Below, piece after piece: positions 3,341 through 27,030 of a DNA stretch of 64,000 nt (positions are counted from its first letter, which is position 1; each line of letters begins with the position of its first letter). The stretch covers positions 1 through 64,000 of the forward strand of contig CT868032.1 in the NCBI GenBank assembly GCA_000165425.1, given 5' to 3'. Position numbers and translations under genes: made by a program. Under the pieces are notes generated by a model. The model had not been told where the DNA came from and searched no databases. It saw only the letters and a program-made list of their open reading frames with translations. This stretch comes from Paramecium tetraurelia (taxonomy: Eukaryota).

Positions 3341-5548
3341 GCCCCAAATTACAACAATCATTTGACCTAATATAATACATTTGGTGTTAAATATCTTGAT
3401 ATACATAATAATGTAATAACTATTATTATTTTTCATTATTTATTAAATCTATATATATATATATATAACTACTACGTCCTTCTCCAAAATCAAATTCGAA
3501 TTCAATTAGCAATCGCAGCCATCTTATCTCAGACTAGCTTATCAGACTTCATAGATCGAACTTTTTTATTTTCAAAAAGATAATAAAATAATCAATTCTA
3601 ATTATGATGATGATCTTAAATAAAATCGATGACACGTTTATCGAGATCAGTAAATTTAAGTATTATAAGGAAATTGATCTTTAATGATAACTATTGTTTG
3701 TTCTTTACCACAAATCAAATTTCTCTTACTTTGTATCAGAACAGGAGAATATGTTTAAATTTAATTGTTAAGCTCAACTGTTACAGTTCGGTCTATTTCT
3801 AGAGAACAGCAATTAATTTATATCTTATTCTAATTTCAGAATGAACTTTTGCAATTATGAACTAAATTAAATTACTCTTAAATTAATTAAAGCATAAAAT
3901 TTGAAATCTAATCAATATAGTTAATCTTTATTTTTACACCACAGGTTGGTTTTATTTAAAAACAAGTCTTCAAATTATTGAGAAAATAGATTGGACTAAT
4001 TAGCACAATATAAAGATTTGATTAAATTATTATTATCTAAATTCTCATTTAGGTGCTATTTAACAAATTTCCAAAGGCAAATGCATACAAATACTTGTTA
4101 AGGCTGGTAAATTACAATAAGATATCAACAACAACAGATTCGCCATATATCCACCCTTCGAAAAATACCTCCTTATTTTGATTTCAAATTAGATAAAGTC
4201 TACTTTCTACCTTCTATTCCTCCTTCTGCTTACAATAATTGCATTCCATGATAAAAATATTTAAATTGGTTTCTTCTATTTAGTTCCACAAATATAATAT
4301 ATCCTCCTTCATCTTCTAAAACAGTCAAACCTTAGGATTAATTCTTACATGCATGCTTACTGTGCATCTATTTTCTTTTTACTGAACATTAAGTCTGAAC
4401 CATAATCTCGAACCATTATAAGTATTTTATCATTAATCTCTAAATATAATTAAATTTATTAGTATATTACCCCACTTTAAATGATATAAAATATATCACA
4501 TTTATTATTAAATAATAGATCATATTATTATATATTTTAATTTTTCATTCTTAATAAATAAAGGCTTTTCAGTGACTCAGTTAGGAGTGTGATAGAATTA
4601 GGGAATTTTTTCTTTGATTGTGCTTAGATTAATTCTCATTTAGGAAGAACACTTTTACAAGTATTTTCAATTACTCCAATATATTAATATTGAAAGATAT
4701 AAACTATAATAATTTAAAGAATTATCTCAAATTAACCAGAAAGTGCTTACATCAGAAATATAGATTATAAATTTAAGTAATTGTTCTGATCCTTTTGGAG
4801 GATAAGCTTATGATTATTTCAACATTTAAAATCGTATGGTAATATAGACAATATTAGAAATGATAACATTGCTTTTCACTTTAAGAAGTTATTTACTTTC
4901 ATAAAAAGAACCAATCCATAAATTAAATCAAAAGTTAGTTAAACTCTATACCATGTTGGGTCCTAACAAGGGATTTATCATAATATACATAATACAAGGC
5001 ATAAGATTACTTCTTTTTGTGAATGGTACATAATATATCGCTAATGATATCATATCAGTTACCCATTAATACAAGAAACAATGTTGTCAATATTAATGAA
5101 AATTGTGATTGTATCACTTCAAAACTTTTATATCATAACATTATCACTATGAGATAACTTTATTTATAATAAAAAGAAATCTCCTGAATTCCAAACCCCC
5201 TTTATCTATCCATTCAATCTTAATAGGAAAATGATTTCATATCCTCTTAATGGAAAAGATAATTGAATTTAAGTAGATTAATACCTATCAAAAAATAAAT
5301 GATTCTAATTTAGTTGAATTAGCGTAATCCTTAAGCAACACATTAAGTTGTTCAATTGAGGTACATCCACTACTAGTAATATAAACAATATTAATAATAG
5401 CGATTTTTGAGAAGAGTCTTTTACTTACTCTAATTAAAGATCATTGCTTAGCCTTTAGATCATAAAATCTATTCAGAATCAGCATTCATTTGACCATCCA
5501 TAAGGCCAACAATGTTATATTGTAATATATTATAATGAATGGTAGTAG

Positions 5549-5698
5549 NNNNNNNNNNNNNNNNNNNNNNNNNNNNNNNNNNNNNNNNNNNNNNNNNNNN
5601 NNNNNNNNNNNNNNNNNNNNNNNNNNNNNNNNNNNNNNNNNNNNNNNNNNNNNNNNNNNNNNNNNNNNNNNNNNNNNNNNNNNNNNNNNNNNNNNNNN
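5549..5698. other. Assembly gap (150 N)
   Basis: Run of N. Confidence 1.
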
Positions 5699-7369
5699 TC
5701 AACTAATAAAACACACTTGAAAGCAATTTAATTGCAACTCCAAACCAACTCTTGCCTTTAAGGCCGTATGGATAAGAAAGAAATAGAACAAATGGGTAGC
5801 CTATGTAGCCAGTGCCTCTCACTTGATGGAAAATTAATTAAAAGAGATGAGAAACGCCCCTGGTAACTCAAATTATTTAATTCACAATTCTTTAAATATT
5901 TATTACTTTAATCCACTAATCTCAGGTCATGGTGAATAACGTCTGAAGAGATAATTAACCTGATAAGAGTTAAGAATTAAATTATCTAATTAATTAAAAT
6001 CTTAGGTATCTTTGAATCATCAATTTGAGCTAAAAGTTAAGAGATCATGTAAACTCAAATTACGGAAGATTATTGTATAGAATACAGCTTACAATAATAG
6101 AAAAAACCACATAAATTAATAAATAGTGACTATTTTTGTGTAATACTTAGCTTACCTTAATAATAATTATGATTAAATTGGTTAATTGTGAGATTGAAGA
6201 TACTGTCCTGAAAGTTTTTGGTTATTTCAATCTATGTAGAGTTTTCAAACGGGAAAGACTATGAAATTATTGTTGTAATTAAATGCATTCCTCAGTTTAT
6301 TATTAGAGATTGGCTGAAGTTCATTGAGCATAAATTAACAATTAACAAGTTTGAATTTGCCTAAATCTTCAATGTAAGTGTTGATAGTTTCTATAACATT
6401 AAAATATCACGACTTCAACTTCTTTTCTAGGAACTCTCTTTGACGATATACGGCATTTACACTTCAGAGACCTTCTGCCCTTTAATGGCATTAGATGTGG
6501 TTCTCAAATGAGAGAGGATATATCAATTAAAAATATTATTATAAATAACCATAAAGTCAAATGTCCATATTAAAGTGATTGAAATATTCACCTTATAGAG
6601 GAAATGCAATAAGCATTCAAAAAATATATGATCTTTTTTATATACCCTAGAAATTTATTTTACGGAAAGTGGATTGATGAGAGTTATGATTTGCAAAGAT
6701 TTTAATCATCAAAAGGTTGAGTTTTGATGGGTTCTTTAAAATTATGGAGCTTCGAGGTAAATAGTTTATATAAAAATAACGGAGCGTACGAAAACTTCTT
6801 CATTAGGCTATCCTGATTTTACAATAATCAAAAAAATGAGAGTAGTATGATAAAATTTGCAAGATTTATTATTAAAAAGATCAATCTTTCAGTAGTGAAA
6901 CAATATCCATATATTTTAAAATTAAACTAAAATGAATTTGAATTAGTCTCATTCTGAAAAGGGGCATTTCAAAATTTTCTTATGTTCCACATTCAAAGTT
7001 ATAAAAATTTAACACGCTAAAATGTTGCTAGGATTAAAATCAAAAGAATTTACATCTACTTTGTCAATATATTAAATAGAAAAAAAATTATGAAATTTCT
7101 CTATAGGTTAAGTTGGGAGCTTAATAAAAATCCTAATTTTTAATCTCAATTCACTGAAATACAGAATTATTTATCATAAGAAATATTGCATGAGCTGTTT
7201 TCTGATAGCAAAATCAAAATAAATCTAAACTTATGTAAAGACTATCAAAAGTATCTTAATTAAGTCCTTTAGTAGAGTATAAATAAGTTAAATAATTATT
7301 TAAAGTTGGTTGAAGAATATCATTTTTTGTATATTTAATTCTTTATAAAAATAAAAAGTGAAATTTTGT

Positions 7370-9975
7370 ATGGCTTGCTTAATTACATAAAATGAGGAAA
7401 TAAAGCTTGCGTTATTGAATATAGTTTGTGAATACAAACAATTTTCAACTCAAATGATAAACAGGCAACATGAAGAAGTAAAAAAAGCTGAAACAAGTTC
7501 AATATTTCTAAATTATTTCTTTTAGTTTTAAGAAATAACAGAATAAAATGGTTAAGAAGAAATATGCCAGAAATTAAAAATTAATACATTGCTAATTAAA
7601 CTCAAAAAGTAATATTAATATAATAAATAGGGTGTATTAATTTCTGAGAATTCCAATCGCCAAAATGAGCCCCTATAAAAGCAGAATACTTGCACTGATT
7701 AAACAACCGGAAACGGCGATGATAATGATCAAATTTATGGTTAGAAATTATCAGGCATTTTTAAGGAACCTTTTTATAAGAAATAGAAAATTTCCTAAAA
7801 GCCAACCATTTTAGTTTGATCCCAACGTAAGAAAAAATGAATTTCAATAAAAGTATATAACTCAATTAAATTATATAAGGAGAGGCTTTACATTTAATCG
7901 AATAGAATCGATTAGAGGAAGCTTTGGTTGTGATTGACGAGGCAATTAAGAAAGACTCTAGTAATCCAAGAAATTATGAATTAAAATGTAGAAATAATAA
8001 ATGATTTCCAGCAAATGTATTACTATTTATGAACCGGCTTACAGAGTCACTAGAATTTGCAGAAAAAGCAATAAAAAATGATATCTAAAATGCTAAAAAT
8101 TATGCAAGAAAAGGTTAATATTATTAATTATATTCAATTAGCTTACATATTACTATAGCTCAAAAGAGGTTTAGATGCTTTAGAGTATTTCAATATAGCT
8201 ATTTAAAAAGACCCTGATGAATATGAATTCGAAGTTGGAAAAGGTATCCATCAATTTAAATTAGCAAATGCTTTATTACATTTGAATAAATTTGATGAAT
8301 GTTAAGCTAGTTATGATGTTGCCATATAAAAGAGCAACAATAAACCAGAAATATATTCAGAAAAGGGTAAATATATATTATAAAATTAAAGCTAATGCAT
8401 TAAGAATACAAAAAAAACACAAAGATGCTTTGATTTCATATGGTAAGGCTATTGAGCTGGATTCTTAATAACCTAGTTTTCATTCAGGAAAAGGTTGAAT
8501 TATATTTCAAAAATATAGCTCATACCTTACAAGAAATGAATCGGTTTGAAGAAGCCTTATTAGAATGGTAAAAAGCAATTGATTTAGAGCCTTCTAATTC
8601 TAATTATTATTCTGGAAGAGGTAAATTAATCTTTTTATTTTAGCATACACTTTAAGATAGTTGAATCGAAATGAAGAAGCCGTAATATCTTACGATTTAG
8701 CTATTCAAAGGAATCCTTAAAACTATGAGCATCACTCAGGAAAAGGTTAAATTAATAATTTTGAAATTAAGCCTATTCGCTAAGATAATTGCAAAGAAAC
8801 ATAGAAGCCATAGATTCTTTCGATTCTGCAATAAGCCTCTATGCTGATGATGCATATATCTATGCATAAAAAGGTTGAGCAATCATAAACTGAAAATTAG
8901 GCCTCGCCTTAAGAGAGATGATTCGCTATCCAGAAGCTGTCAAATGTTTCGAACAAGCTATTGAAAAAAATCCAGAAGATTATGAGTACTTTATTCATAA
9001 AGGTTTTTCTTAAAACTTATGAATTAGCTGACACTTTAAGAGCCATGAATAAGGCCAAGGAGGCTCTGGATTCTTATAATCAAGCTATTCAAAGATTTCC
9101 TCAAGATGAAAGAATTTACGGAGCAAAAGGTAAACTAACCTAATACTCTTTATAGCATAGGCATTACGTCTTCAGAAAAATTATGATGAAGCTCTGAAAT
9201 ACTTTGATAAAGCAATTTAAATGAATCCGGAAAATCCAAGTTTTTATGCAGGAAAAGGTTGATACTAATAAATTCCAAAATAGGTGACACTCTAAGAGAT
9301 CTGAATCGTTATCAGGATTGTTTAAAATATTTTGATCAAGCAATTCACTACCATCCTGAAAATTCATTTTATTATGGAGCCAAAGGTAGAACTTATTTAA
9401 TAATTAAAGCGGATGCATTACGACACCTCGATCAATTTGATGAAGCGCTAAAATATGCCAACCTTGCTATAAATTGGAATCCAAATCTAGCTGATAATTA
9501 TGAGCTAAAAGGTAAATCACTATTTGTCAAATACTAGCAAACATTTTAAAATTCTAGCTAAAGATTGATGAGGCTTTGAAAAATTTTGACAAGGCAATTA
9601 AAATAAATCCTGAACCTTCTAAATACTATGCAGAAAAAGGTATTACTAAATTAATTTATAATAACTTCAGCTGATACTTTAAGAGCGGTTAATCGAAATG
9701 AAGAAGCCTTGAAATCTTGCGAAATTGCTCTTAATAAAGAACCATATAACCACAATTATATTGTAATTAAAAGTATAAATGAATTTATTTACTTAGTGAT
9801 TACTTTATTATAGATGTGTCGCTGGAAAGAATCATCAGAATTATATAAAATATTAAAATAAACATATCCAAATTAGGAATTTCTGAATCATATAAATTGT
9901 AAATATACAAAGATATTTTTAGGGAATATAATAATTTAAATGGAGTAATGTCTTAAAAGATTGGTCAATGATTGA
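7370..9975 (+). CDS. Tetratricopeptide-repeat (TPR) protein, about 16 repeats, 20 introns
   Basis: Spliced table-6 frame from ATG 7370 to TGA 9973-9975. Repeats such as ADTLRAMNKAKEALDSYNQAIQRFPQDERIYGAK and GDTLRDLNRYQDCLKYFDQAIHYHPENSFYYGAK match the 34-aa TPR consensus. 5' exons are less certain. Confidence 0.88.
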
Positions 9976-10811
9976 AATATATTTCAAAAGAAATATAAAT
10001 ATATTTATCATTAGAAAATAACTTATACATTCATCTAACTGAATACTAAAGCTTTAAATTGTAGTAAGTATTATACTCAATATTTGGTGTGGTTGCCACA
10101 TTCAAATTATTCATTATTTAATAAAATACCAAGTTTTATCCCCTCTATCGTGTATTAATAGATGATCTTCTTTTTCTAAAGACACTTTACACACTACAAA
10201 CAGCTTAAAATATTCATAACCAATTACTCTTCTACAGCTTTGTATAAAAACTATATTATCAAATTTTCACCTTTGTTCCTTTCTTTAAATGTCTTTAGTT
10301 AAATTTCGACATTCATTTTTTTAATCTCTCAGGTTTGATATAGTTATTATTCATTATCCATTATTGCTTAGTAAAGTGTTTAAATCTTCCTGCTCTCCAT
10401 ATTAATTTTTTACTATCCAATCAGCCAATCAATCAGATCAAACCCAAACATCTATTTCATAGAGCTATTAGCAAATCATATTAGTCTACAAACTTAACTT
10501 TCAATTGGCCAAAACCTAAACATAAATAACCAAGAAAAAAAAAGTTTAGTAGTGTGCCTATTCAATAGAAGTAGCTTAAAAATTTAAATTATTATTAATT
10601 AACCAATGGTTTTATACAGTTTCAAGTGAAACTAAAACGATCAATCTAGAGTATAAGTCCATAAATATACTCATCTAAACTCTGTTATTGATTGATTAGA
10701 GATGTCAAAGGTGTGCTTCTGATAGATTTGAATTATTCTTTCAAAGTAATTAATAATAAATTAAGATATTAAGATATTAAAATTATTATATTTATATTTT
10801 TGTATATGAAA

Positions 10812-11453
10812 TCAAAATATTAGGCACTTTTCTTTTCCATCGCTTTTTTTACTTGAGGCATTTTAAGAGTTGACACCTTTACCTAAAGCTACATTTCTAA
10901 TTGCCAAGTCAAAAATCTCTTTAACACCTTCCTATGTTTATGTAGAACATTCTAGATACTAACATTGTAATTAATTTATGTTTGACTTAGCCTTATAATT
11001 ATAGAAATATATGTACTGCTTCATACTAAACATGATTTGGATTTGCTACATTTCTCATGTCTTTATTATTTCCAACAAATATTTTTGGTACTTATTTTAA
11101 TTCAGGAGTTTCCACTTCTTAGTACCATTTATTGATTGCATTTTTAGAAGCTTTCTTGATCAATAACTGAGAAGATGATTAAAAAGACATCAGCCTTACC
11201 ATAACTCAATTACCTTAGTCTGTTATATGTTTCTTATCCTGCAGTATCCCATAAACTTAAATTAACTGTCTTGCCTTCAAAAGCTGTTTAAATCGTATAA
11301 TTTTCAAACACCTAAGGGACAAAATCTTGTGTTAAATGATCCTTTAAATAACTAAAGTTGAATAAACAAATACCTCAACAGAATGTCATGTTTGCCAACA
11401 CCACCATCACCTAAGGCAACTAACTTTATTGAAATTGAATTTTTTTCAGACAT
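10812..11453 (-). pseudogene. Rho/Rac-family small GTPase, degenerate (frameshift in T5 run near 11141-11145)
   Basis: IKLVALGDGGVGK, VFENY, LSLWDTAGQETYNRLR, YLECS and C-terminal CAAX CLIF; two tiny introns. One extra base breaks the frame. Confidence 0.8.
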
Positions 11454-11709
11454 CACACAAAATTTATATTTAATAATTATATATATCCTTTGAATATGTT
11501 AAGTAATGCTGAAAGGCTGTTGTAAAATTAATATTTGAGAAGGTGTACTGAGTGAAATCCTAAATTATGGTCTGCTTTTGGTTCTATCGTAATGAATACG
11601 ATCATGTTATAATTTAAAAAAAAATCGAAGAAAATGCACAAAATTTAATACATATATAAAATAATTAATAACAATATAAAAATATACATCAAATAAATTT
11701 CTCTCGCGT

Positions 11710-11900
11710 ATAATGATCTCCTATATTGCTTTTCATACTTTGATGTACACAGAGCTTGACATTAGAATAATGATGTTAATTTCAATCAATCTATGAAATA
11801 TTAAACTCTAAAATAGTTAATGAATTGATTTTGGCAAGAGCGATGGCCATAATTTATTTATAGCTTTGAGCTCTGCCTTTAATTTGCTACTTTAGTGTTT
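11710..11900 (+). pseudogene. Degenerate coding relic, duplicated at ~18180-18360
   Basis: Close sequence match between the two copies; no intact frame. Confidence 0.35.
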
Positions 11901-13450
11901 TCCAAATAGCATTTGAGAATGTAATATCTGTATCATGTTTTAAGAAGTGATTTAGCTGCTGAATTTTTGAAAATGGGAAAAGTTTTAAGAAGTTACATTT
12001 AAAAACCTCAACACATCTAATAAATATAAATTTTAATAACAATCGCAAGCTATTTTAATATTATATTTTATTGACTAATAGATTTTATGATTTTGAAATT
12101 AAGGGTAATTATGCATTATAAACTTCATTAAAAGGCATGGTTATATTCCTTCTCAAAAATAGTTTATAGAGAAACGAACATTGATTAGCGCAGACTTTTA
12201 ATATAGAAAATTCAATTTTAAGAATGTTTAGATAAAATAATAATCGTATAAGTGGATCTATTTTATTCATTACTATCGATGTCAAGCCTAATAATATTAT
12301 TTCTAAACTTATAGACCAAAACTGTAGATTTAAGAGAACTCATATTAATTACAAATTACAATTTATACTTATATATATTAACAAAAGGAAAATTCGATAT
12401 TACAATTTCTCTAATTTATATTGTAATAAATAAAAATCATAATAAAATATTAATTCTTAATATTCCAATTGAGGCTGAAGCTTTAGAGATTCATTTTTAT
12501 TAATTATTTATAGAGTCTTTAGCGTAAAAAAAATATTAATCATATATAATCTCACAAGAATTTAATAATTCAAACTAAAATATTTTCAAACTATTTGAAT
12601 ATATACATAATTCATTTTTGGAAACAACTAAATTAGACTATTGATATCCAAATTTAACTACTTGACATTAAATTGATGTATATCAACCTAAAGATGGATT
12701 ATGTTATTTGATTTTTTATGTATTTATTATTAGAAAAAGCAAAAATAGTTTTCAATCTAATATTAAATCAAGATCATCTTGCATAATAAGACTATCTTTC
12801 TTTACTAATATATTCCAATAATATTACATTATATTATTTCTGTATAAAAACAATTAAGAGTACATAAACTGATTTTTTGAATTGTAAAATAGTGGAAAAT
12901 AAAAAAATTGGTTTATTCTTTTTCTCTACCTATCTTCAAAGAGCTGATGAAAGGATTAATTATATTCCATAAAGATGTTTGACAATTTACTAGATCTGTT
13001 TTTATTCTTGCTGGAAAACATAAATGATTTAAATATATTGCCAAAGAGATGCAAAAAAAGAAATAAGTAAAATAATAACTAATGTTTCAAAATATTTGTC
13101 CCATTCAAAAAACTCCTTAGGATAGATATTAGGCCACTGAATTAATCGAATCTCTATGAAATTTGAAATAAGCAATTCTGATTTATTAAGAATTGAGAAT
13201 TTATTTTAAAATAAAGAATAAATTTATTTCCTTGAGGTAAGTGGAAGGCTTTTGTTTATTTAACTGGATTTGAAAATTTAAGTTGAAGTAATTCAAAATA
13301 AATTCAAAGCAAACTTGATTGTTACATAAATTAAAAAAATTTATATTGCTAATCAATAATAAATTCGACCAAACACCTCAAATTTGGTTCATATTTGCTG
13401 AATTTCTTATTCATTTTCAAAATTAAAATTAACTTTAAACGATACATCAA

Positions 13451-14995
13451 ATGAGTTCTGCTCCTAAAATTCAAAGACTCGTATTCTCTAGTGAATTACC
13501 AGAAAATCCTATGGCAAATAAAATGACATTAAAGAAAGACAAAACTTGTGGAGGAAGGATCAGATGGAATTTGGTTTTTAATGTAGTAATGATTGCAATG
13601 GCAGGCTTCCCTTTTTATCTTCCCTTAGAGGCTACTTTGGGAGTTAACTGTTTCTATGCTTTATTGTGGATTTTATTTTTAGTTTTGGCTGCCAATACAT
13701 AATCAAAAATCCACTAAACGATGAAAAAGGTGTCTAACAACTCTTAATAACCTCCAAATCCTACACCTATCAAATTCATATTGATGACATTTATATACAA
13801 AGAACCTTTAGACTTGCTAGTAAAAACACTCCAAAATATTCAACAACAAAGAATAGCCAAAGAGATCATCATGGTTGTTTGTATGGAGGAAAAAACTCCA
13901 GAGAAGGAAACCAAAATTGATGCAGTATTTGAATAATTCAAAGACTGTTTCGATTAACTCATAGTTACTGTTCATCCTTATGGAACTCCTGGAGAGATTC
14001 CAGGAAAATGCTCTAATACTAATTATGCTATTAGATCAGTGTTGGCTCATTTAAAATAAAGCAACCCTAACTTTGACCCAAAAAAGTACTTTGTAACTAA
14101 TTTTGATGTGGATACATTATTTCACAAAAACTTTCTAGATATTTAAATGATGAACATACTGAAAGAGAAAGATAGAAACAATTTTGTTTGGTAACCAGTT
14201 TTATTTTATAATTGGGGACTTGATAAACTTAGTTTTTTCACAAGAATTACAGGATTAGCTAGAAATATGTTAATGATGGGAGCGTTAATTCCTTTAAACA
14301 TAAATATTATGAGTGTCTACACAGCTTCCTTATAATTACACATAGAGGGAGACTTTTGTCATCCAGCATATTAAATGGATGACATAATCTGCTATATTAG
14401 ATGGAAGACTTTAAGCAGAAGAGCTCTTAAGATAAAACCAATTTATTGTCCTACTATTTCAGGACCTACTTCTGGTTCAAATATGTGGTAAGAATTCATT
14501 GAATGGATCAGGCAGAATAAGAGATGGAGCATAGGGTCAGCTGAAGCTTTCCATTATTTCATAATTAAAGCTCCAAGAATAAGGTTTTGTTAAGCATTCA
14601 CATGGGCCTGCAATTATCTTAACTATTATGCCTCCTTCATTTGTGTTTAAAGCTTATTATTGATTACAACCACAATAAGACTCTTTGCGATGGAAACTGA
14701 TCCTAATTTATAACAATATTTTTGTATCCCTTTGGGTGTCGTTTATATCTGCCTTTTTTGCATGATGGTCATGAATAAAATCGCAGTAAAATATCTCCTA
14801 AAGGATATTGTAGTTGAAATTATACCAATATGGAAAGACTTCATTCATTGGATATTAAGTCTCATAGTAATGGTTGGGTATGGACTGATAGTGTTTTATG
14901 GGTTCTGGGAAATTTTCTTTTGTGGTAAAGGAGTTTGTACCCATGAACCTTCAAAGAAGAAAGTACTTGATGCCAATTGTTTAGCGTAAAGATGA
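13451..14995 (+). CDS. Membrane-bound processive glycosyltransferase family 2 (copy 1), intronless, 514 aa
   Basis: Two N-terminal TM helices, YKEP, HPYGTPGEIPGKCSN, DVD (14105-14113), MDD, QNKRW (14513-14527), then several C-terminal TM helices. Confidence 0.88.
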
Positions 14996-15844: not shown

Positions 15845-15994
15845 NNNNNNNNNNNNNNNNNNNNNNNNNNNNNNNNNNNNNNNNNNNNNNNNNNNNNNNN
15901 NNNNNNNNNNNNNNNNNNNNNNNNNNNNNNNNNNNNNNNNNNNNNNNNNNNNNNNNNNNNNNNNNNNNNNNNNNNNNNNNNNNNNNNNNNNNNN
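15845..15994. other. Assembly gap (150 N)
   Basis: Run of N. Confidence 1.
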
Positions 15995-17960: not shown

Positions 17961-20677
17961 TGTCACGCAAAATTGATATTTGATAATTATATATCCTTTG
18001 GACTGAAAGGCAGTTGTAAAATTAATGTTTGAGAAGGTGTAATGAGTAAAATCTTAAATTTAATCTGATTTTGGTTATATCGTAATGATTACGATCATAT
18101 TACATAATATTTTTTTTTAAATTGGAAAAAAATTCACAAAATTTATTATATTTATATGATAATCAATAAAATTAAAAATTAATGATCTCCTTTATTGCTT
18201 TTCATACTTTGATGCACACAGAGCTTGACATTAGAATAATGATGTTAATTTAAATCAATTTATGCAATATTAAACTCTAAAATAGTTAATGAATTGATTT
18301 TGACAAGAGATAGGCATATTTTATTTATGGCTTTGAGCTCTGCCTTTAATTTGCTACTTTTGTGTTGTTCTAAAAACATATATTTCTAAAATCACATTTT
18401 GGACAAACAAAATTATAATGGTATTTTAATTTCCAGTTTTCTTGTACACTCGTTATATTCCGTATAAAAATAGTATTAGCCTTACTATCAGAGGTCAATT
18501 TAATAAAATCAGAAGAGAATGATACTGATGAATAGATAATATCAAAATATCCTTCTAATGATGATTTTTTTTATCCTTTTTTATATCTTAACTTTTAATA
18601 TTATCAGGGCTTTCCAATGCTTATCAGAACAAGCAATATAAATTGATTGAAGAAACCAGCAAAAGTACCTAATTTATGATTTAAAGCAATAATTTTATAT
18701 GAAATGTAAAAAAAATTATAATTCTATAAGCATTTCTTTAGTTGAAAATGATTTTACAATTATTATGAATTATCTATTTATTGACAAAGATAATGGATTT
18801 AGAGGACCTATCTCATTAAACAAATTGATAAAATAGCTAAAAGAAAATAGGATTTATTCATAAAAAAATACTGATTTTTATCTTTTAATCAAAATGAAAA
18901 TATACTATCATAATTTCCTATATTACAAGGTAGAGTCCTAATATTTATAACGGATTGAAAAACCTTGTAACAATTTATTTCTAATATCTGATAAAATTGT
19001 AAATTCTGAAAGTTCAAGATTATAAATATCAAGTGAGATTATTAATAATTTCTTGATAGAAAATAGGTGAGGAATAGTGCTATAAAAAATTACTTCAAAA
19101 TCATTTCGCTGAGCCAAGATGTTAAGATTAGCCTAATTATAAATAATTAATCTATATATATAATACTAATTTGGCAATGACTTCAAATTACATTTCATAT
19201 TTCCTAGTCCATCGAACTATTTAAGAGCTGCTTTACATACAAGGTTAACAATCTCAATATATTCTTAATTTAGAGTTTGGTAATAATAACTTGATTTAAA
19301 ATTAGATTCTTTGTCAAAATAAGCCTAAGAGGTGAAAATGGCTTACCAATTGAAATAATTATAACTTAGAATAGAGACTTGATTTGGTTAATCAAAACGA
19401 ACTTTGATTAGCGAAAGCTGTGAATATTGAAAATTCAATTTTAAGAACGCACAAATAAAAAATTATTTAAATGGATCTTGCACATTAACATCATAAATAT
19501 CAATATCGAGCCTTATTAATAGTATTTAAAAGTTTATAGGCTTAAAAAGTGGAATTACGAAAATTCATATTTTAATTACGGATCAAAATTTATACTTATA
19601 TGTATTAACAAAATAAGGTTTGATATTACAATTTCTCTAAGCAATCTTGTAATAATCAATTGAATCATAAAAAACACTAATCTTTTTAATATTCCAATCG
19701 AGGCTCAATCCTTAGAGATTCATTTTTATTAATTATCCATAAAGTCTTTAGCATAAAAAATATTAATTCGTCATATGTAATCTCTACAAAGAAATTAATA
19801 ATTCAAATTAAAATTGTTTCACTCTATTTGAATATATATAATTCATTATTGGAAACATCTAAATCAAACTATTGATATCCAAATTTAACTACTTGACATT
19901 AGATTGATGTATATCATCCTAAAGATGGATTTTATTATTTGATTTTTTATGTATTTATTATTAGAAAAAAGCAAAAATAGTTTTCAATCTAATATTAAAT
20001 CAAGATCATCTTGCATAATAAAACTATCTTTCTTTACTAATATATTCCAATCATATTACATTATATTATTTCTGTATAAAAACAATTAAGAGTACATAAA
20101 CTGATTTTTTGAATTGTAAAATAGTGGAAAATACAATAATTGGTTTACTCTTTTTCTCTACCTATTTTCAAAGAGCTGATGAAAGGACTAATTATATTCC
20201 ATAAAGATGTTTGACAATTTACTATATCTGTTTTTATTCTTGTTGGAAAACATAAATGATTTAAATATATTGCCAAAGAGATGCAAAAAAAGAAATAAGT
20301 AAAATAATAACTAATGTTTCAAAAGGTATATTTCATCAAAATTACTCCTTAACATATCTATTAGGCCCCGATAAGGGCAGAAAAATTAATCGAATCTATA
20401 TGAAAATTGAAAATAAGCAGTTGAGATTTGTTGAGAAATTTTTTTGAAATAAAGAATAAATTTAGGTAACTGGAAGGCTATTCTATATTTAACTGGATTT
20501 AAAAAACTAATTTGAAGTAATTCAAAATAAATTCCAAGCAAACCTGAATGGTAATTAATTTAAAAAATATATAATGTTAATTAATTATGAATATGACAAA
20601 ACAACCCTGTTAGCTTATATTCTCTGAATTTCTAATATCGTTTTCAAAATTAAAATTAACTTAAAACGATTTATCAA

Positions 20678-22261
20678 ATGAGTTCTGCCACTAACAATCA
20701 AAGGCTAGTATTCTCTAGTGAATTACCAGAAAACCCTATGGCAACTAAGATGACATTAAAGCAAGACAAAACTTGTGGAGGAAGGATTAGATGGAATTTG
20801 ATTATCAATGTAGTAATGATTGCAATGGCAGGCTTCCCTTTTTATCTTCCCTTAGAGGCTACTTTAGGAGTTAACTGTTTCTATGCCTTATTGTGGATTT
20901 TATTTATATTTTTGGCTGCCAATACATAATCAAAAATCCACTAAACGATGAAAAAGGTTTCTAACAACTCTTAATAACCTCCAAATCCTACACCTATCAA
21001 ATTCATATTGATGACATTTATATACAAAGAACCATTAGAATTACTATTAAAAACACTCCAAAACATTCAACAACAAAGAATAGCCAAAGAGATCATCATG
21101 GTTGTTTGTATGGAGGAAAAAACTCCAGAGAAGGAAACCAAAATTGATGCAGTATTTGAATAATTCAAAGACTGTTTCGATTAACTCATAGTTACTGTTC
21201 ATCCTTATGGAACTCCTGGAGAGATTCCAGGAAAATGCTCTAATAATAATTATGCTATTAGATCTGTATTGGCTCATTTAAGAAAAAACGACTCCAACTT
21301 TGACCCTAACAAATACTTTGTAACTAACTTTGACGTTGATACAATATTTCACAAAAACTTTCTAGATATTTAAATGATGAACATACTGAAAGAGAAAGAT
21401 AGAAACAATTTTGTTTGGTAACCAGTTTTATTTTATAATTGGGGACTTGATAAACTTAGTTTTTTCACAAGAATTACAGGATTAGCTAGAAATATGTTAA
21501 TGATGGGAGCGTTAATTCCTTTAAACATAAATATTATGAGTGTCTACACAGCTTCCTTATAATTACACATAGAGGGAGACTTTTGTCATCCAACATATTA
21601 GATGGATGACATAATCTGCTACATTAGATGGAAAACTTTAAGCAGAAGAGCTCTTAAGATAAAACCGATATACTGCCCTACTATTTCAGGACCTACTTCT
21701 GGTTCAAATATGTGGTAAGAATTCATTGAATGGATCAGGCAGAATAAGAGATGGAGTGTAGGGTCGGCTGAAGTTTTCCACTATTTTGTGATTAAAGCTC
21801 CAAGAATAAAGCTTTGTTCAGCCTTCACATGGGCCTGCAATTATCTTAACTATTATGCCTCCTTCATTTGTGTTTAAAGCTTATTATTGATTACAACCAC
21901 AATAAGACTCTTTGCGATGGAAACTGATCCTAATTTATAACAATATTTTTGTATCCCTTTGGGTGTCGTTTATATCTGCCTTTTTTGCATGATGGTCATG
22001 AATAAAATCGCAGTAAAATATCTCCTAAAGGATATTGTAGTTGAAATTATACCAATATGGAAAGACTTCATTCATTGGATATTAAGTCTCATAGTAATGG
22101 TTGGGTATGGACTAATAGTGTTTTATGGGTTCTGGGAAATTTTCTTTTGTGGTAAAGGAGTTTGTACCCATGAACCTTCAAAGAAGAAAGTACTTGATGC
22201 AATTGTTTAGCGTAAAGATGAAACCGTGATAGAGATTCATCAGTAACAGAATAAAATTTGA
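20678..22261 (+). CDS. Membrane-bound processive glycosyltransferase family 2 (copy 2), intronless, 527 aa
   Basis: Paralog of 13451-14995 with the same DVD, MDD and QNKRW motifs; ends ..VLDAIVQRKDETVIEIHQQQNKI-TGA. Confidence 0.9.
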
Positions 22262-24859: not shown

Positions 24860-27030
24860 ATGGAAAAATTAATACCATTCATTAATGATCTGCACGTATA
24901 GAATTAATAATACCTTTCGTATAGGATATCCTGAGTTAAGCAGGATTGAGCAGCGAATTGAATTTGCCTTCAATAGTTGTTATTGGGTCTTAATCAGTTG
25001 GAAAGTCCTCTCTTCTTGAAAGTATTGTTGGCAGAGAGTTTTTGCCAAGGGGTAAGGGGATTGTGACAAGAAGACCGATCGAGATTCAATTGCATTAGGT
25101 TTTGGATGCGGAGCTGGGATGGTTTGAATTTATGGATAAGAAAGGAGAGAAGATATTCGAATCAGAAGATATACGGAAATTAATAGAGTCAGAGACGGAT
25201 AAGGTGGCAGGGAAGAATAAGGGGATATCGCCTGCGCCAATTAAAGTGAAATATTTTTCAAAAGACATCCTTGATCTCTAACTAATTGATTTGCCAGGAA
25301 TAACAAAGAATCCAGTTGGGGATCAACCACTGGATATAGAATAGAAGGTTCTGGACATTGTGATGCCGTTTATCAACAATTAAAATAGTCTGATATTGGC
25401 AGTGTCCAAAGCATCTGATGATTTAGCAACGTCAGATGGGTTGAAATTGGCGAGAAGTGTTGATCCCAATGGTGTAAGAACTATAGGAGTGATAACTTAA
25501 TTGGATCTAATGGATGAAGGGTCTGATGCTTTAAATGATCTGCTTAATCAAACGTATCCATTGTAGTTGGGATACGTGGGGGTAATAATGAGAGGGCAGA
25601 AGGATATCCAGAAGAACAAGACCATTTTTGAGCAGCTAAAAGACGAAAAGGCATTTTTTGAGAATCACAAGTTGTACAAAAAGTATTCTGAAAAGATGGG
25701 TGTTAATTTCTTGGTGAAGACTCTGAACATGAATTTTATTCAACATATCAAGAAGGCTTTACCAATTATCAGAGAAACCATTATAAGTTTAGTGTAAATA
25801 AAGGAATTCGATCTCAAGTAGTATGGAGACTATGACAATTTGGAGACTAAGGAGAATAAGAACTTGCTTGTTTTGACTTTAATATCAAAATTTTCCAGTT
25901 CTTATAAGGACATGCTGGAAGGGAGATGTTTGGATATCACAAGTAAGGAATTGATTGGTGGATCTAGAATAATTTATGTATTCAATGAAACTTTCAGGAG
26001 AACCATATAGAGAATGAATCCATTTGATGTTTTAAGTGATGACGAGATAAGAACAGCAATCAAGAATGCAAATGGAATTAGGCCAACTTTATTTGTTCCT
26101 GAAGGAGCATTTGAATTATTAGTAAGATAGCAGATTTCAAGATTGAGAATGCCTTCAATTGAATGTTCTCATATCGTATTTGAGGAGTTGAGGAGAGTGA
26201 TAAACTAGATTTCGATTCCAGAGATAGAGAGATTTGATACTCTGGCTAATAGAATTTCGGAAGTAATTGAAAATCTTTTAAACAGATGTTTGAGATAGAC
26301 TGAGGAAATAATATCCAGTTTGATTGATATTGAATTGGGGTACATAAATACAAGTCATCCAGATTTTGTATCTGGGATGGACATGGTGCATAAGGATGAA
26401 CAAAGATAATAATAATAAATGTAATAATAATAGAAGGAAAAGTCTCCTCTGTAGAGTGAGAATGAGTCCAATAGGTTCTTCAATTTCTGGCCATTCAAAA
26501 ATAACAAGCAGACTGAGTTATATGATAGCAAATTGGACAATTTGAATAAGAAGAGGAAATCCAACATCATCAATCAGAAGCAGCAAAAGTTATAATAGGT
26601 AGAGGAGAGTCAGATCCTGTAGCAGCAATCGGTGATCAATAAGATCGTGTCTGTGAATCAGCAGTATTTTGTGAATGACCCAAAAAGACAGTTGCCTCAG
26701 GTTCCAAATACGATCAAGATCACCGACAGACCGTCGAAGAGAGAGCAGACAGAGATGGACATGATTAAGGATTTGTTGGTTTCGTACTTCAATTTGGTGA
26801 AGAAGAACATTTGCGATTCAGTTCCGAAGACTATCATCACGTTTTTGGTGAATCAATCGAGGAACTTTTGTGAAAGGGAATTGATTGGGATGTTGTACAA
26901 GCAGGAATTGGTGGATGAATTGTTGTAGGAGAATCAATTCATACAGAAATCACGAGCGGAGACAAAGTAATCTTTGATTAGCTTGAGGACTTGTTTGAAT
27001 TTGTTGAATGATTTGGATTCTAAATTCTGA
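24860..27030 (+). CDS. Dynamin-related GTPase (DRP/Vps1/Dnm1-like), 713 aa
   Basis: [41 protein letters not shown], middle domain and GED ([18 protein letters not shown]). One 29-nt intron at 24896-24924. Confidence 0.96.

What the first reader, a model, noticed from the sequence alone, without database searches (positions are those of the whole stretch)
7853..9922. TPR gene built from exact 102-nt, one-repeat-per-exon cassettes
Seen directly: introns at 7988-8011, 8114-8141, 8244-8264, 8367-8391, 8494-8518, 8621-8643, 8746-8771, 8874-8900, 9003-9027, 9130-9155, 9258-9283, 9386-9409, 9512-9537, 9640-9670, 9773-9796 and 9899-9922 delimit 15 consecutive 102-nt (34-codon) exons. All introns are phase 1 at the same repeat position (usually ..K-G/A..). 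Exons are symmetric, so any can be duplicated, lost, swapped or skipped without frameshift, and their sequences are highly diverged from one another. This parallels the fixed 90-nt-exon LRR genes known in Tetrahymena. Inference: a modular, exon-shuffled TPR receptor repertoire, possibly immune-like.
Basis: partly seen in the sequence, partly recalled or inferred. Interest (0 to 1): 0.78.

Follow-up and report, generated by a model that had tools for sequence, protein, structure and literature searches.

The report
Paramecium TPR gene, one repeat per exon
This is a Paramecium gene for a protein made only of TPR repeats, in which every repeat sits in its own 102-base exon between tiny introns; the layout is real and striking, but it belongs to a TPR gene family already known in Paramecium and shows no sign of an immune-type role.

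Summary
Sixteen GT..AG introns of 21-31 nt, all phase 1, delimit 15 exons of exactly 102 nt. Spliced under the ciliate code, 7837-9972 gives an open 576-residue protein that is nearly all TPR repeats.

The organism is an aurelia-type Paramecium. The nearest database protein is a P. octaurelia TPR fragment, 81% identical and collinear over units 8-12.

The kind is known. P. tetraurelia TPR genes are described as dense in germline-only inserts (IESs) sitting at the 5' end of "TPR coding exons" (PMC6771405). In that paper's table, 26 of 29 successive IES spacings in four TPR genes are 122-131 nt. This window's units measure 123-133 nt.

Shuffling and an immune role are not supported. The exons are old (mean 52%, maximum 67% nt identity). 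No second copy lies in the window. The protein has no signal peptide, membrane segment or effector domain.

New here: the invariant Leu of every repeat is coded xTA, giving a fixed TA at exon bases 10-11 in 15 of 15 exons. This may be the IES junction.

The parts
7837..9972 (+). Whole coding span of the TPR gene: ATG 7837, TGA 9970-9972, 17 exons, 16 introns, 576 residues after splicing under the ciliate code
   Evidence: the nearest upstream in-frame TGA is at 7726
7837..7987 (+). Exon 1 (151 nt): 14 N-terminal residues plus the first TPR
   Evidence: Pfam TPR_11 E 0.0015; own-unit HMM hit at 7900-7986
7988..8011 (+). Intron 1, 24 nt, phase 1; in-frame TGA if retained
8012..8113 (+). 102-nt TPR exon, unit 1
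8114..8141 (+). Intron 2, 28 nt, phase 1, shifts the frame if retained
8142..8243 (+). 102-nt TPR exon, unit 2
8244..8264 (+). Intron 3, 21 nt, phase 1, 3n without in-frame TGA
8265..8366 (+). 102-nt TPR exon, unit 3
8367..8391 (+). Intron 4, 25 nt, phase 1
8392..8493 (+). 102-nt TPR exon, unit 4
8494..8518 (+). Intron 5, 25 nt, phase 1
8519..8620 (+). 102-nt TPR exon, unit 5
   Evidence: TPR_11 27.1 bits, above the cut-off of 26.8
8621..8643 (+). Intron 6, 23 nt, phase 1
8644..8745 (+). 102-nt TPR exon, unit 6
8746..8771 (+). Intron 7, 26 nt, phase 1
8772..8873 (+). 102-nt TPR exon, unit 7
8874..8900 (+). Intron 8, 27 nt, phase 1; in-frame TGA if retained
8901..9002 (+). 102-nt TPR exon, unit 8
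9003..9027 (+). Intron 9, 25 nt, phase 1
9028..9129 (+). 102-nt TPR exon, unit 9
9130..9155 (+). Intron 10, 26 nt, phase 1
9156..9257 (+). 102-nt TPR exon, unit 10
   Evidence: TPR_1 35.3 bits, above the cut-off of 27.8
9258..9283 (+). Intron 11, 26 nt, phase 1
9284..9385 (+). 102-nt TPR exon, unit 11
9386..9409 (+). Intron 12, 24 nt, phase 1, 3n without in-frame TGA
9410..9511 (+). 102-nt TPR exon, unit 12
9512..9537 (+). Intron 13, 26 nt, phase 1
9538..9639 (+). 102-nt TPR exon, unit 13
9640..9670 (+). Intron 14, 31 nt, phase 1
9671..9772 (+). 102-nt TPR exon, unit 14
   Evidence: no Pfam hit at E<=1 when scanned alone; matches the gene's own unit profile, of which it is a member
9773..9796 (+). 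Intron 15, 24 nt, phase 1, 3n without in-frame TGA (weaker support)
9797..9898 (+). 102-nt exon, unit 15: degenerate, capping-like, no TPR hit
9899..9922 (+). Intron 16, 24 nt, phase 1, 3n without in-frame TGA (weaker support)
9923..9972 (+). Last exon, 50 nt including the TGA stop
8021..8022 (+). Example of the invariant TA, the last two bases of the Leu xTA codon at exon bases 10-11. The same TA stands at that offset in all 15 102-nt exons, and at 7889-7890 in exon 1. Proposed germline IES junction.
   Evidence: and for 7889-7890; a variant contig of run X16 carries 31 extra letters between 8026 and 8021

Best explanation
This is a macronuclear gene of an aurelia-type Paramecium. It encodes a soluble 576-residue protein made almost wholly of about 16 tetratricopeptide repeats, and it belongs to the genus' expanded TPR gene family.

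Shown: each repeat is one 34-codon exon. The tiny intron always splits the codon for the small residue at TPR position 8. The exons join in frame only after splicing.

Inferred origin: the array grew long ago by tandem duplication (unequal crossing-over) of an exon-plus-intron unit. The exon length stayed at exactly 102 nt because a TPR tolerates no insertion or deletion. The intron positions are inherited rather than re-acquired.

Inferred function: the product is a TPR superhelix that acts as a protein-binding scaffold in the cytoplasm.

Inferred germline state: in the germline each unit probably also carries a short IES at the invariant TA near the exon's 5' end. If so, each repeat needs one DNA excision and one RNA splicing event before it can be expressed.
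For: Structure and frame:
- Introns, exon lengths, phase and the open spliced frame are confirmed.
- 13 of the 15 102-nt exons, and exon 1, have a TPR family as best Pfam hit when scanned singly (E 8.5e-9 to 0.049). Two exceed the curated cut-off. Exon residue 1 aligns to TPR position 9.
- The column pattern fits a TPR: L 15/15, A 14/15, I 13/15, P 11/15.

Organism:
- Ciliate code: 24 sense TAA/TAG in this gene, and an intron-free dynamin frame with 29 such codons.
- Mean intron length is 25.3 nt, against the '25 nt' given for P. tetraurelia (PMC8997360, abstract and passages).
- Six of the 150 best profile hits are Paramecium proteins. One, from P. octaurelia, is 81% identical.

Family:
- In its Table S2 I read 46 of 152 TPR rows, covering 12 genes. 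Four genes with 6-12 IESs give 26 of 29 spacings of 122-131 nt, and those IESs are 25-29 nt long. The window's units are 123-133 nt.
- PMC3464196 (passage) reports multi-copy IESs that arose from expansion of TPR repeats.

Age and stability:
- Maximum exon-exon nt identity is 0.667, with no dependence on lag.
- The gene is collinear with the P. octaurelia fragment.

TA site:
- The Leu codon is xTA in 15 of 15 exons, against 22 of 45 other Leu codons in the gene (P about 2e-5). It is the only exon position with TA in 10 or more exons.
Against: - No transcript evidence: one search showed no joints. An 81-nt contig of run X17 crosses intron 11 unspliced, but that run may be DNA.
- Four 3n introns cannot be told from coding sequence by the reading frame alone.
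- The fold was not predicted, because the spliced protein could not be handed to the folding tool.
- No full-length orthologue was found. The profile search and two word searches gave only a 185-residue fragment, so repeat number across species is untested.
- The IES claim is indirect, because no germline DNA was available. The one insertion seen adds 37 nt, outside the 25-29 nt of the periodic IESs. It lies in a copy with 5 other differences in about 130 nt, so it may be a paralogue. Its place is ambiguous between two TAs.
- The invariant xTA could instead reflect codon preference or a splicing signal.
- The scaffold function is inferred from the fold class only.
Confidence: 0.78

Rival explanations
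1. One reading: the gene is one member of a modular, exon-shuffled TPR receptor repertoire with an immune-like recognition role. Symmetric cassettes are duplicated, swapped or skipped to create binding diversity.
For: - Phase 1-1 exons of 3n length allow any gain, loss or skip in frame.
- The family is expanded and repeats the same unit in P. tetraurelia.
- Multi-copy IESs show that some TPR units duplicated recently (PMC3464196).
- Two precedents link one-repeat-per-exon arrays to candidate recognition genes: the Tetrahymena LRR genes (PMC6564038) and the Ectocarpus NB-ARC-TPR genes with 42-residue TPR exons (PMC3341825, abstract and passages).
Against: - In this gene no exon pair exceeds 66.7% nt identity, and neighbouring exons are no more alike than distant ones.
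- Unit order is conserved against the P. octaurelia fragment.
- There is no NB-ARC, kinase, signal peptide or membrane segment.
- No clustered paralogue lies in the 64 kb.
- Introns of 21-31 nt cannot hold the spare or inactivated exons seen in Ectocarpus.
- No variation or isoform data exist.
Confidence: 0.07
2. The introns were gained independently in each repeat, after the repeat array already existed. Each gain occurred at the same protosplice-like site (AAG|G at the K-A/G junction), so the exons were never duplicated as units.
For: - 14 of 16 exon ends read AAG, AGG or GAG followed by intron GT, and the next exon mostly starts with C or G. This is a plausible target motif.
- The introns share no similarity visible by eye in the listing; I did not align them.
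Against: - Sixteen independent gains at the same codon position, with none elsewhere in the gene, is far less economical than inheritance through duplication.
- The same period appears in at least four P. tetraurelia genes.
- Introns of about 25 nt at 19% G+C lose detectable similarity quickly, so their dissimilarity says little.
Confidence: 0.05
3. The intervals are not spliced. On this view the region is a decayed or non-coding TPR-like repeat, or some of the 16 'introns' are pattern-matching artefacts in AT-rich DNA.
For: - GT..AG candidates are common: 535 on the + strand of the window.
- No RNA junction was seen.
- Four 3n intervals are open in frame.
- The P. octaurelia relative is annotated only as a 185-residue fragment with a frame-shifted tail.
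Against: - Fifteen exact 102-nt spacings occur here, against a background of about 2 per length in 64 kb.
- The spliced frame is free of TGA over 576 codons, P 1.2e-5.
- Conserved TPR columns are kept in register across three DNA frames.
- Intron G+C is 18.8% against 31.1% for exons.
Confidence: 0.03

Closest known systems
IES-dense TPR-motif gene family of Paramecium tetraurelia (IPR019734 genes; example PTET.51.1.G1500001; Vitali et al. 2019, PMC6771405)
   Same: - The genus matches by protein similarity.
- Both are TPR arrays encoded by tandem 'TPR coding exons'.
- The unit period is the same: 123-133 nt here, against IES spacings of 122-131 nt in 26 of 29 cases there.
   Different: - The paper describes the IESs, not the exon rule. 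I found no statement of exact 102-nt exons or uniform phase 1 in the passages and table rows I read.
- Whether this gene carries IESs is untested.
- Some annotated relatives have long N-terminal regions without TPRs, which this gene lacks.
Tetrahymena LRR genes with tandem arrays of exactly 90-bp exons (Xiong et al. 2019, PMC6564038)
   Same: A ciliate repeat-protein family with one repeat per fixed-length exon, one uniform intron phase, and a junction codon shared by neighbouring exons.
   Different: - The repeat is LRR, not TPR; the exon is 90 nt, not 102; the phase is 2, not 1.
- The Tetrahymena arrays include young, nearly identical exons and clonal expansions. The exons here are old (maximum 67% identity).
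- The paper places the origin of the 90-bp exons after the Tetrahymena-Paramecium split, so the two systems are independent.
Ectocarpus NB-ARC-TPR genes (Zambounis et al. 2012, PMC3341825)
   Same: One TPR per exon in a lineage-specific expanded family; proposed cassette evolution.
   Different: - The exons there encode 42 residues (a TPR plus a linker).
- An NB-ARC domain is present there.
- Spare and inactivated exons lie in long introns there, and positive selection was reported.
- None of these is seen here.
Widespread TPR class named SPINDLY/O-GlcNAc-transferase-like by its sources
   Same: The repeat sequence class is the same. The profile of these exons hits 36,414 representatives at E<=0.001. 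Among the top hits whose names I looked up are proteins named SPINDLY family, and a P. tetraurelia relative named SPINDLY by UniRef.
   Different: No glycosyltransferase domain is present here. Those names come from the TPR part only.

Membership tests
Tetratricopeptide repeat (TPR) proteins | Tandem repeats with a 34-residue period | tested here: met
   15 units of exactly 34 codons, with no insertion or deletion
Tetratricopeptide repeat (TPR) proteins | Match to curated TPR profiles | tested here: met
   13 of 15 102-nt exons, and exon 1, have a Pfam TPR family as best hit when scanned singly (8 of the 15 at E<0.001). Two reach the curated cut-off; units 14 and 15 have no TPR hit. The whole spliced protein could not be scanned.
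Tetratricopeptide repeat (TPR) proteins | Conserved small and hydrophobic residues at positions 8, 11, 20, 24, 27 and 32 (canonical pattern recalled, not from a call) | tested here: met
   Position 8: A/G 13/15. Position 11: L 15/15. Position 20: A 11/15. Position 24: F/Y 11/15. Position 27: A 14/15. Position 32: P 11/15.
Tetratricopeptide repeat (TPR) proteins | Helix-turn-helix repeat fold forming a superhelix | not tested
   The spliced protein is not a contiguous translation of the window, so it could not be given to the folding tool.
Paramecium IES-dense TPR gene family (PMC6771405) | Sequence kinship with Paramecium TPR proteins | tested here: met
   P. octaurelia P0108 is 81% identical over 142 residues. 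P. tetraurelia P0002 is 35% identical over 494. Four further Paramecium proteins are 30-41% identical over 213-470 residues.
Paramecium IES-dense TPR gene family (PMC6771405) | Tandem TPR-coding exons with a unit of about 125-130 nt | tested here: met
   Window periods are 123-133 nt. Published IES spacings are 122-131 nt in 26 of 29 cases in four genes.
Paramecium IES-dense TPR gene family (PMC6771405) | A short germline IES at the 5' end of most TPR exons | tested here: inconclusive
   No germline DNA was available. Indirect evidence only: an invariant TA at exon bases 10-11 in 15/15 exons, and one 37-nt insertion at that place in a variant contig of run X16.
Tetrahymena 90-bp-exon LRR genes (PMC6564038) | LRR repeats in exons of exactly 90 bp separated by phase 2 introns | tested here: not met
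   TPR repeats, 102 nt, phase 1. The likeness is in design only.
Ectocarpus-type NB-ARC-TPR candidate receptors (PMC3341825) | An NB-ARC (or other signalling) domain joined to the TPR array | tested here: not met
   The frame is closed by TGA at 7726 upstream and at 9970. None of 52 + strand frames across 4000-12500 (frames lying wholly inside the array, 7851-9959, left out) had a Pfam hit at E<=0.001.
Ectocarpus-type NB-ARC-TPR candidate receptors (PMC3341825) | Signs of exon shuffling: near-identical or inactivated spare exons | tested here: not met
   Maximum exon identity is 66.7%. No further TPR unit lies anywhere in the window on either strand.

The most novel reading that the evidence does not exclude
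The unit amplified in Paramecium TPR genes is a three-part module: a tiny phase-1 intron, a 102-nt exon, and a roughly 27-nt germline IES. The IES is anchored at a TA that selection holds in place through the choice of an xTA codon for the invariant Leu of each repeat.

Every repeat of the protein would then depend on two independent excisions, one of DNA during macronuclear development and one of RNA. Incomplete IES excision is reported to be temperature-dependent in this family. It could therefore disable or alter single repeats, giving somatic, heritable-by-epigenetics variation in a large set of binding scaffolds.
Probability: 0.3. Interest if true: 0.6.

Novelty: new member of a known kind. 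Interest (0 to 1): 0.36.

Why it matters
Fixed-length, single-phase repeat exons are rare, and they are clear footprints of how repeat proteins grow. Ciliates now show the pattern twice and independently: 90-nt LRR exons in Tetrahymena and 102-nt TPR exons in Paramecium.

In Paramecium the same units are also the densest sites of germline inserts. The family is therefore a compact system for asking how introns, IESs and repeat duplication evolve together.

The invariant TA suggests that a DNA-elimination site can constrain synonymous codon choice. That can be tested directly with existing germline assemblies.

For this particular gene the practical message is modest. It is an ordinary member of that family, and its gene model needs all 16 introns to be right. 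Relatives in public annotations look truncated, or appear to retain 24-nt introns.

Tried and rejected
- Whole genome of the window: none is held, so the genome-wide exon-length histogram could not be made.
- Pfam scan of the full spliced protein: not run. The exons were scanned one by one instead.
- RNA evidence: runs were found. Laying X19, X17, X16 and X1 gave no joints; X19 laid nothing and cover was patchy. This is no evidence for or against splicing.
- Loose ends of X16 contigs at 8150 and 8152, on the invariant TA of unit 2, may come from paralogues. They were not used as evidence.
- Word search with exon 1 for longer proteins: none found.
- Word search with the exon alignment: the 33-residue query is below the tool's 40-residue minimum.
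- Word search with P0108 for longer proteins: only 22-39% identical TPR proteins came back; the named ones are bacterial or archaeal.
- Metagenome scan with P0108: two loci, at 29% and 35% identity, not followed.
- Earlier notes of this scan: nothing on this genome.
- Literature searches for '102-bp exon', '102 bp exons', '102-nt exon', '102 nt exons' and 'exons of 102', and for Paramecium with TPR and exon terms. These found no paper stating the 102-nt phase-1 rule.
- PMC3520747 matched only through 'TPRT'.
- PMC13685798, on ciliate intron evolution, does not mention TPR.
- Supplement of PMC6771405: the file is cut when stored. The IES rows of the paper's example gene PTET.51.1.G1500001 were not in the stored part, and only 46 of 152 TPR rows were read.
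- Higher-order repeat structure among exons: none.
- Telomere repeats in the window: none.
Full report
What is there

All 16 listed intervals start with GT and end with AG and are 21-31 nt long (mean 25.3). The 15 stretches between them are each exactly 102 nt. The start codon is at 7837, not 7853, which makes the first exon 151 nt and every intron phase 1.

Under the ciliate nuclear code (TAA and TAG read as Gln), the spliced message is 1731 nt. That is 576 codons followed by TGA at 9970-9972, with no TGA inside. For this base composition that has a chance of about 1.2e-5. The frame holds 24 sense TAA/TAG codons against 12 CAA/CAG.

Ten introns are not multiples of three. The repeat units therefore lie in all three DNA frames and come into register only after removal of exactly these intervals. 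Introns are 18.8% G+C and exons 31.1%.

More than chance

I listed every AT-rich GT..AG candidate of 18-35 nt in the window and counted open stretches between any two of them, by length. On the + strand, 102 nt occurs 14 times. The mean is 2.1 per length and the next-best length has 9. Thirteen of the 14 lie in this gene. The other two of its 102-nt exons were missed because intron 8, which they flank, falls just under my AT filter.

A profile built from 14 of the units finds no further unit on either strand of the 64 kb, apart from one more repeat inside exon 1.

What the protein is

Scanned one exon at a time, 13 of the 15 102-nt exons and exon 1 have a Pfam TPR family as best hit. Eight of the 15 are at E<0.001, and two are above the curated cut-off. 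Unit 14 has no hit and unit 15 only a weak unrelated one.

The alignments place the first full codon of each exon at TPR position 9. The split codon is therefore position 8, the small residue of helix A, and it reads A or G at 13 of 16 junctions. Column conservation fits a TPR: Leu 15/15, Ala 14/15, Ile 13/15, Pro 11/15.

The protein has no hydrophobic segment; the highest 19-residue Kyte-Doolittle mean is 0.78. The frame is closed upstream at 7726. None of 52 + strand frames across 4000-12500, leaving out those wholly inside the array, has a Pfam hit at E<=0.001. The protein is thus a stand-alone, soluble, all-TPR protein. I could not fold it, because a spliced product is not accepted by the folding tool.

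Whose gene it is

Several lines point to Paramecium:
- The genetic code.
- Introns averaging 25 nt, the figure given for P. tetraurelia (PMC8997360, abstract and passages).
- G+C near 25-30%.
- Ordinary eukaryotic neighbours: dynamin, WD40 proteins, a kinase, a CLASP-like protein.

A profile of the exon peptides against 1.84 billion representatives gave 36,414 hits at E<=0.001, because this TPR class is widespread. Of the 150 best, six have ciliate-like composition, and all six proved to be Paramecium proteins: three from P. tetraurelia, two from P. octaurelia and one from P. bursaria.

One of these, a 185-residue P. octaurelia protein, is 81% identical to residues 295-436 of the spliced product. 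The others are 30-41% identical. No full-length orthologue turned up.

Comparison with what is published

The one-repeat-per-exon layout of Paramecium TPR genes is not new.

- Vitali et al. 2019 (PMC6771405; passages and the legend of Fig. 8). TPR genes are the most IES-dense family in P. tetraurelia, holding 1135 IESs. [quoted passage not shown]
- Their Table S2. The stored copy is cut, and I read 46 of its 152 TPR rows, covering 12 genes. Four genes with 6 to 12 IESs carry IESs of 25-29 nt at regular points. I dropped two long IESs (130 and 60 nt) that lie between regular ones. After that, 26 of 29 successive spacings are 122-131 nt. The other three are 93, 246 and 247, and the last two equal two units. 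Since 122-131 is 102 plus 20-29, the same exon-plus-intron unit recurs there. The units in this window measure 123-133 nt.
- Arnaiz et al. 2012 (PMC3464196, passage). Some multi-copy IESs arose by expansion of TPR repeats.

I found no paper stating the exact 102-nt length or the uniform phase 1. Anyone looking at the public gene models would see it.

Two other systems resemble this one in design:
- Tetrahymena LRR genes have tens of thousands of exons of exactly 90 bp separated by phase 2 introns. The authors date their origin after the split from Paramecium (PMC6564038).
- Ectocarpus NB-ARC-TPR genes have 42-residue exons, each with one TPR and a linker. They have spare exons in long introns and signs of positive selection (PMC3341825).

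Shuffling and immunity

The arithmetic is right: any of these exons could be gained, lost or skipped in frame. This gene shows no trace of recent traffic, however.

- Exon pairs share 34-67% of bases (mean 52%), and neighbours are no more alike than distant exons.
- The P. octaurelia fragment matches units 8 to 12 in order at 81% identity, and only 36-41% in shifted registers. The order has held since those lineages, or paralogues, parted.
- There is no signalling domain, no secretion or membrane signal and no local cluster.

I rate the immune-type repertoire reading at about 7%.

A new detail

The invariant Leu of each repeat (TPR position 11) is coded TTA in 13 exons and CTA in 2. A TA dinucleotide therefore stands at exon bases 10-11 in all 15 exons. 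It is the only exon position with TA in ten or more exons. The first-exon repeat also uses TTA, at 7888-7890. Other Leu codons of the gene end in TA in 22 of 45 cases, so 15 of 15 has a chance near 2e-5.

Paramecium IESs are cut out at TA (recalled knowledge). The family's IESs lie at the 5' end of the exons. I therefore propose that this TA is the excision junction, and that it constrains the synonymous site.

One thin observation fits. In run X16, a contig that differs from the window at 5 other places carries 31 extra letters between 8026 and 8021. This is a 37-nt insertion flanked by a 6-base repeat that includes this TA.

Three points weigh against it:
- 37 nt is longer than the 25-29 nt of the regular IESs.
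- The copy may be a paralogue.
- The junction could equally be the next TA, three bases on.

Codon preference or a splicing signal could also explain the invariance.

Verdict

The gene is a member of a known Paramecium family, and its design parallels two published systems. The array most likely arose by old tandem duplication of an exon-plus-intron unit, probably with an IES, and has since been stable. Its product is most likely a cytoplasmic TPR scaffold.

Splicing itself, the germline inserts and the function remain inferred. I read both papers myself.

Noticed in passing
window 8021-8026: In run X16, a contig that differs from the window at 5 other places within about 130 nt carries 31 extra letters flanked by a repeat of 8021-8026. 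This is a 37-nt insertion at the 5' end of the first 102-nt exon. It could be a retained germline IES or an insertion in a paralogue.
   Followed up: partly
window 5549-5698 and 15845-15994: Two runs of exactly 150 N, either assembly gaps or withheld stretches.
   Followed up: no
window 13319-14995 and 20597-22261 (+): Two open frames of about 555 residues, 7 kb apart. Their translations look nearly identical by eye, with several hydrophobic stretches, and have no Pfam match. They look like a local duplicate pair of an uncharacterised, probably membrane, protein.
   Followed up: no
window 24889-27030 (+): An intron-free 713-residue frame with full dynamin architecture (Dynamin_N, Dynamin_M, GED) and 29 TAA/TAG sense codons. 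It is a clean internal control for the ciliate code.
   Followed up: partly
protein P0108 (P. octaurelia), residues 141-185: The tail of this annotated 185-residue relative reads like a frame-shifted translation of the next TPR unit, and the model starts in the middle of a repeat. The orthologue there is either broken or mis-annotated.
   Followed up: partly
protein P0062 (P. tetraurelia GSPATT00009802001): Some repeat boundaries in this annotated relative carry short extra stretches of about 4-8 residues between the K-G junction and the next repeat. They look like retained small 3n introns in the public gene model.
   Followed up: no
Table S2 of PMC6771405, scaffold 100: Two IES-rich TPR genes, PTET.51.1.G1000001 and G1000002, lie back to back at positions 203-1994 of their scaffold. 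The paper's example gene is also the first gene of its scaffold. This suggests such genes gather at chromosome ends. This window has no telomere repeat.
   Followed up: no
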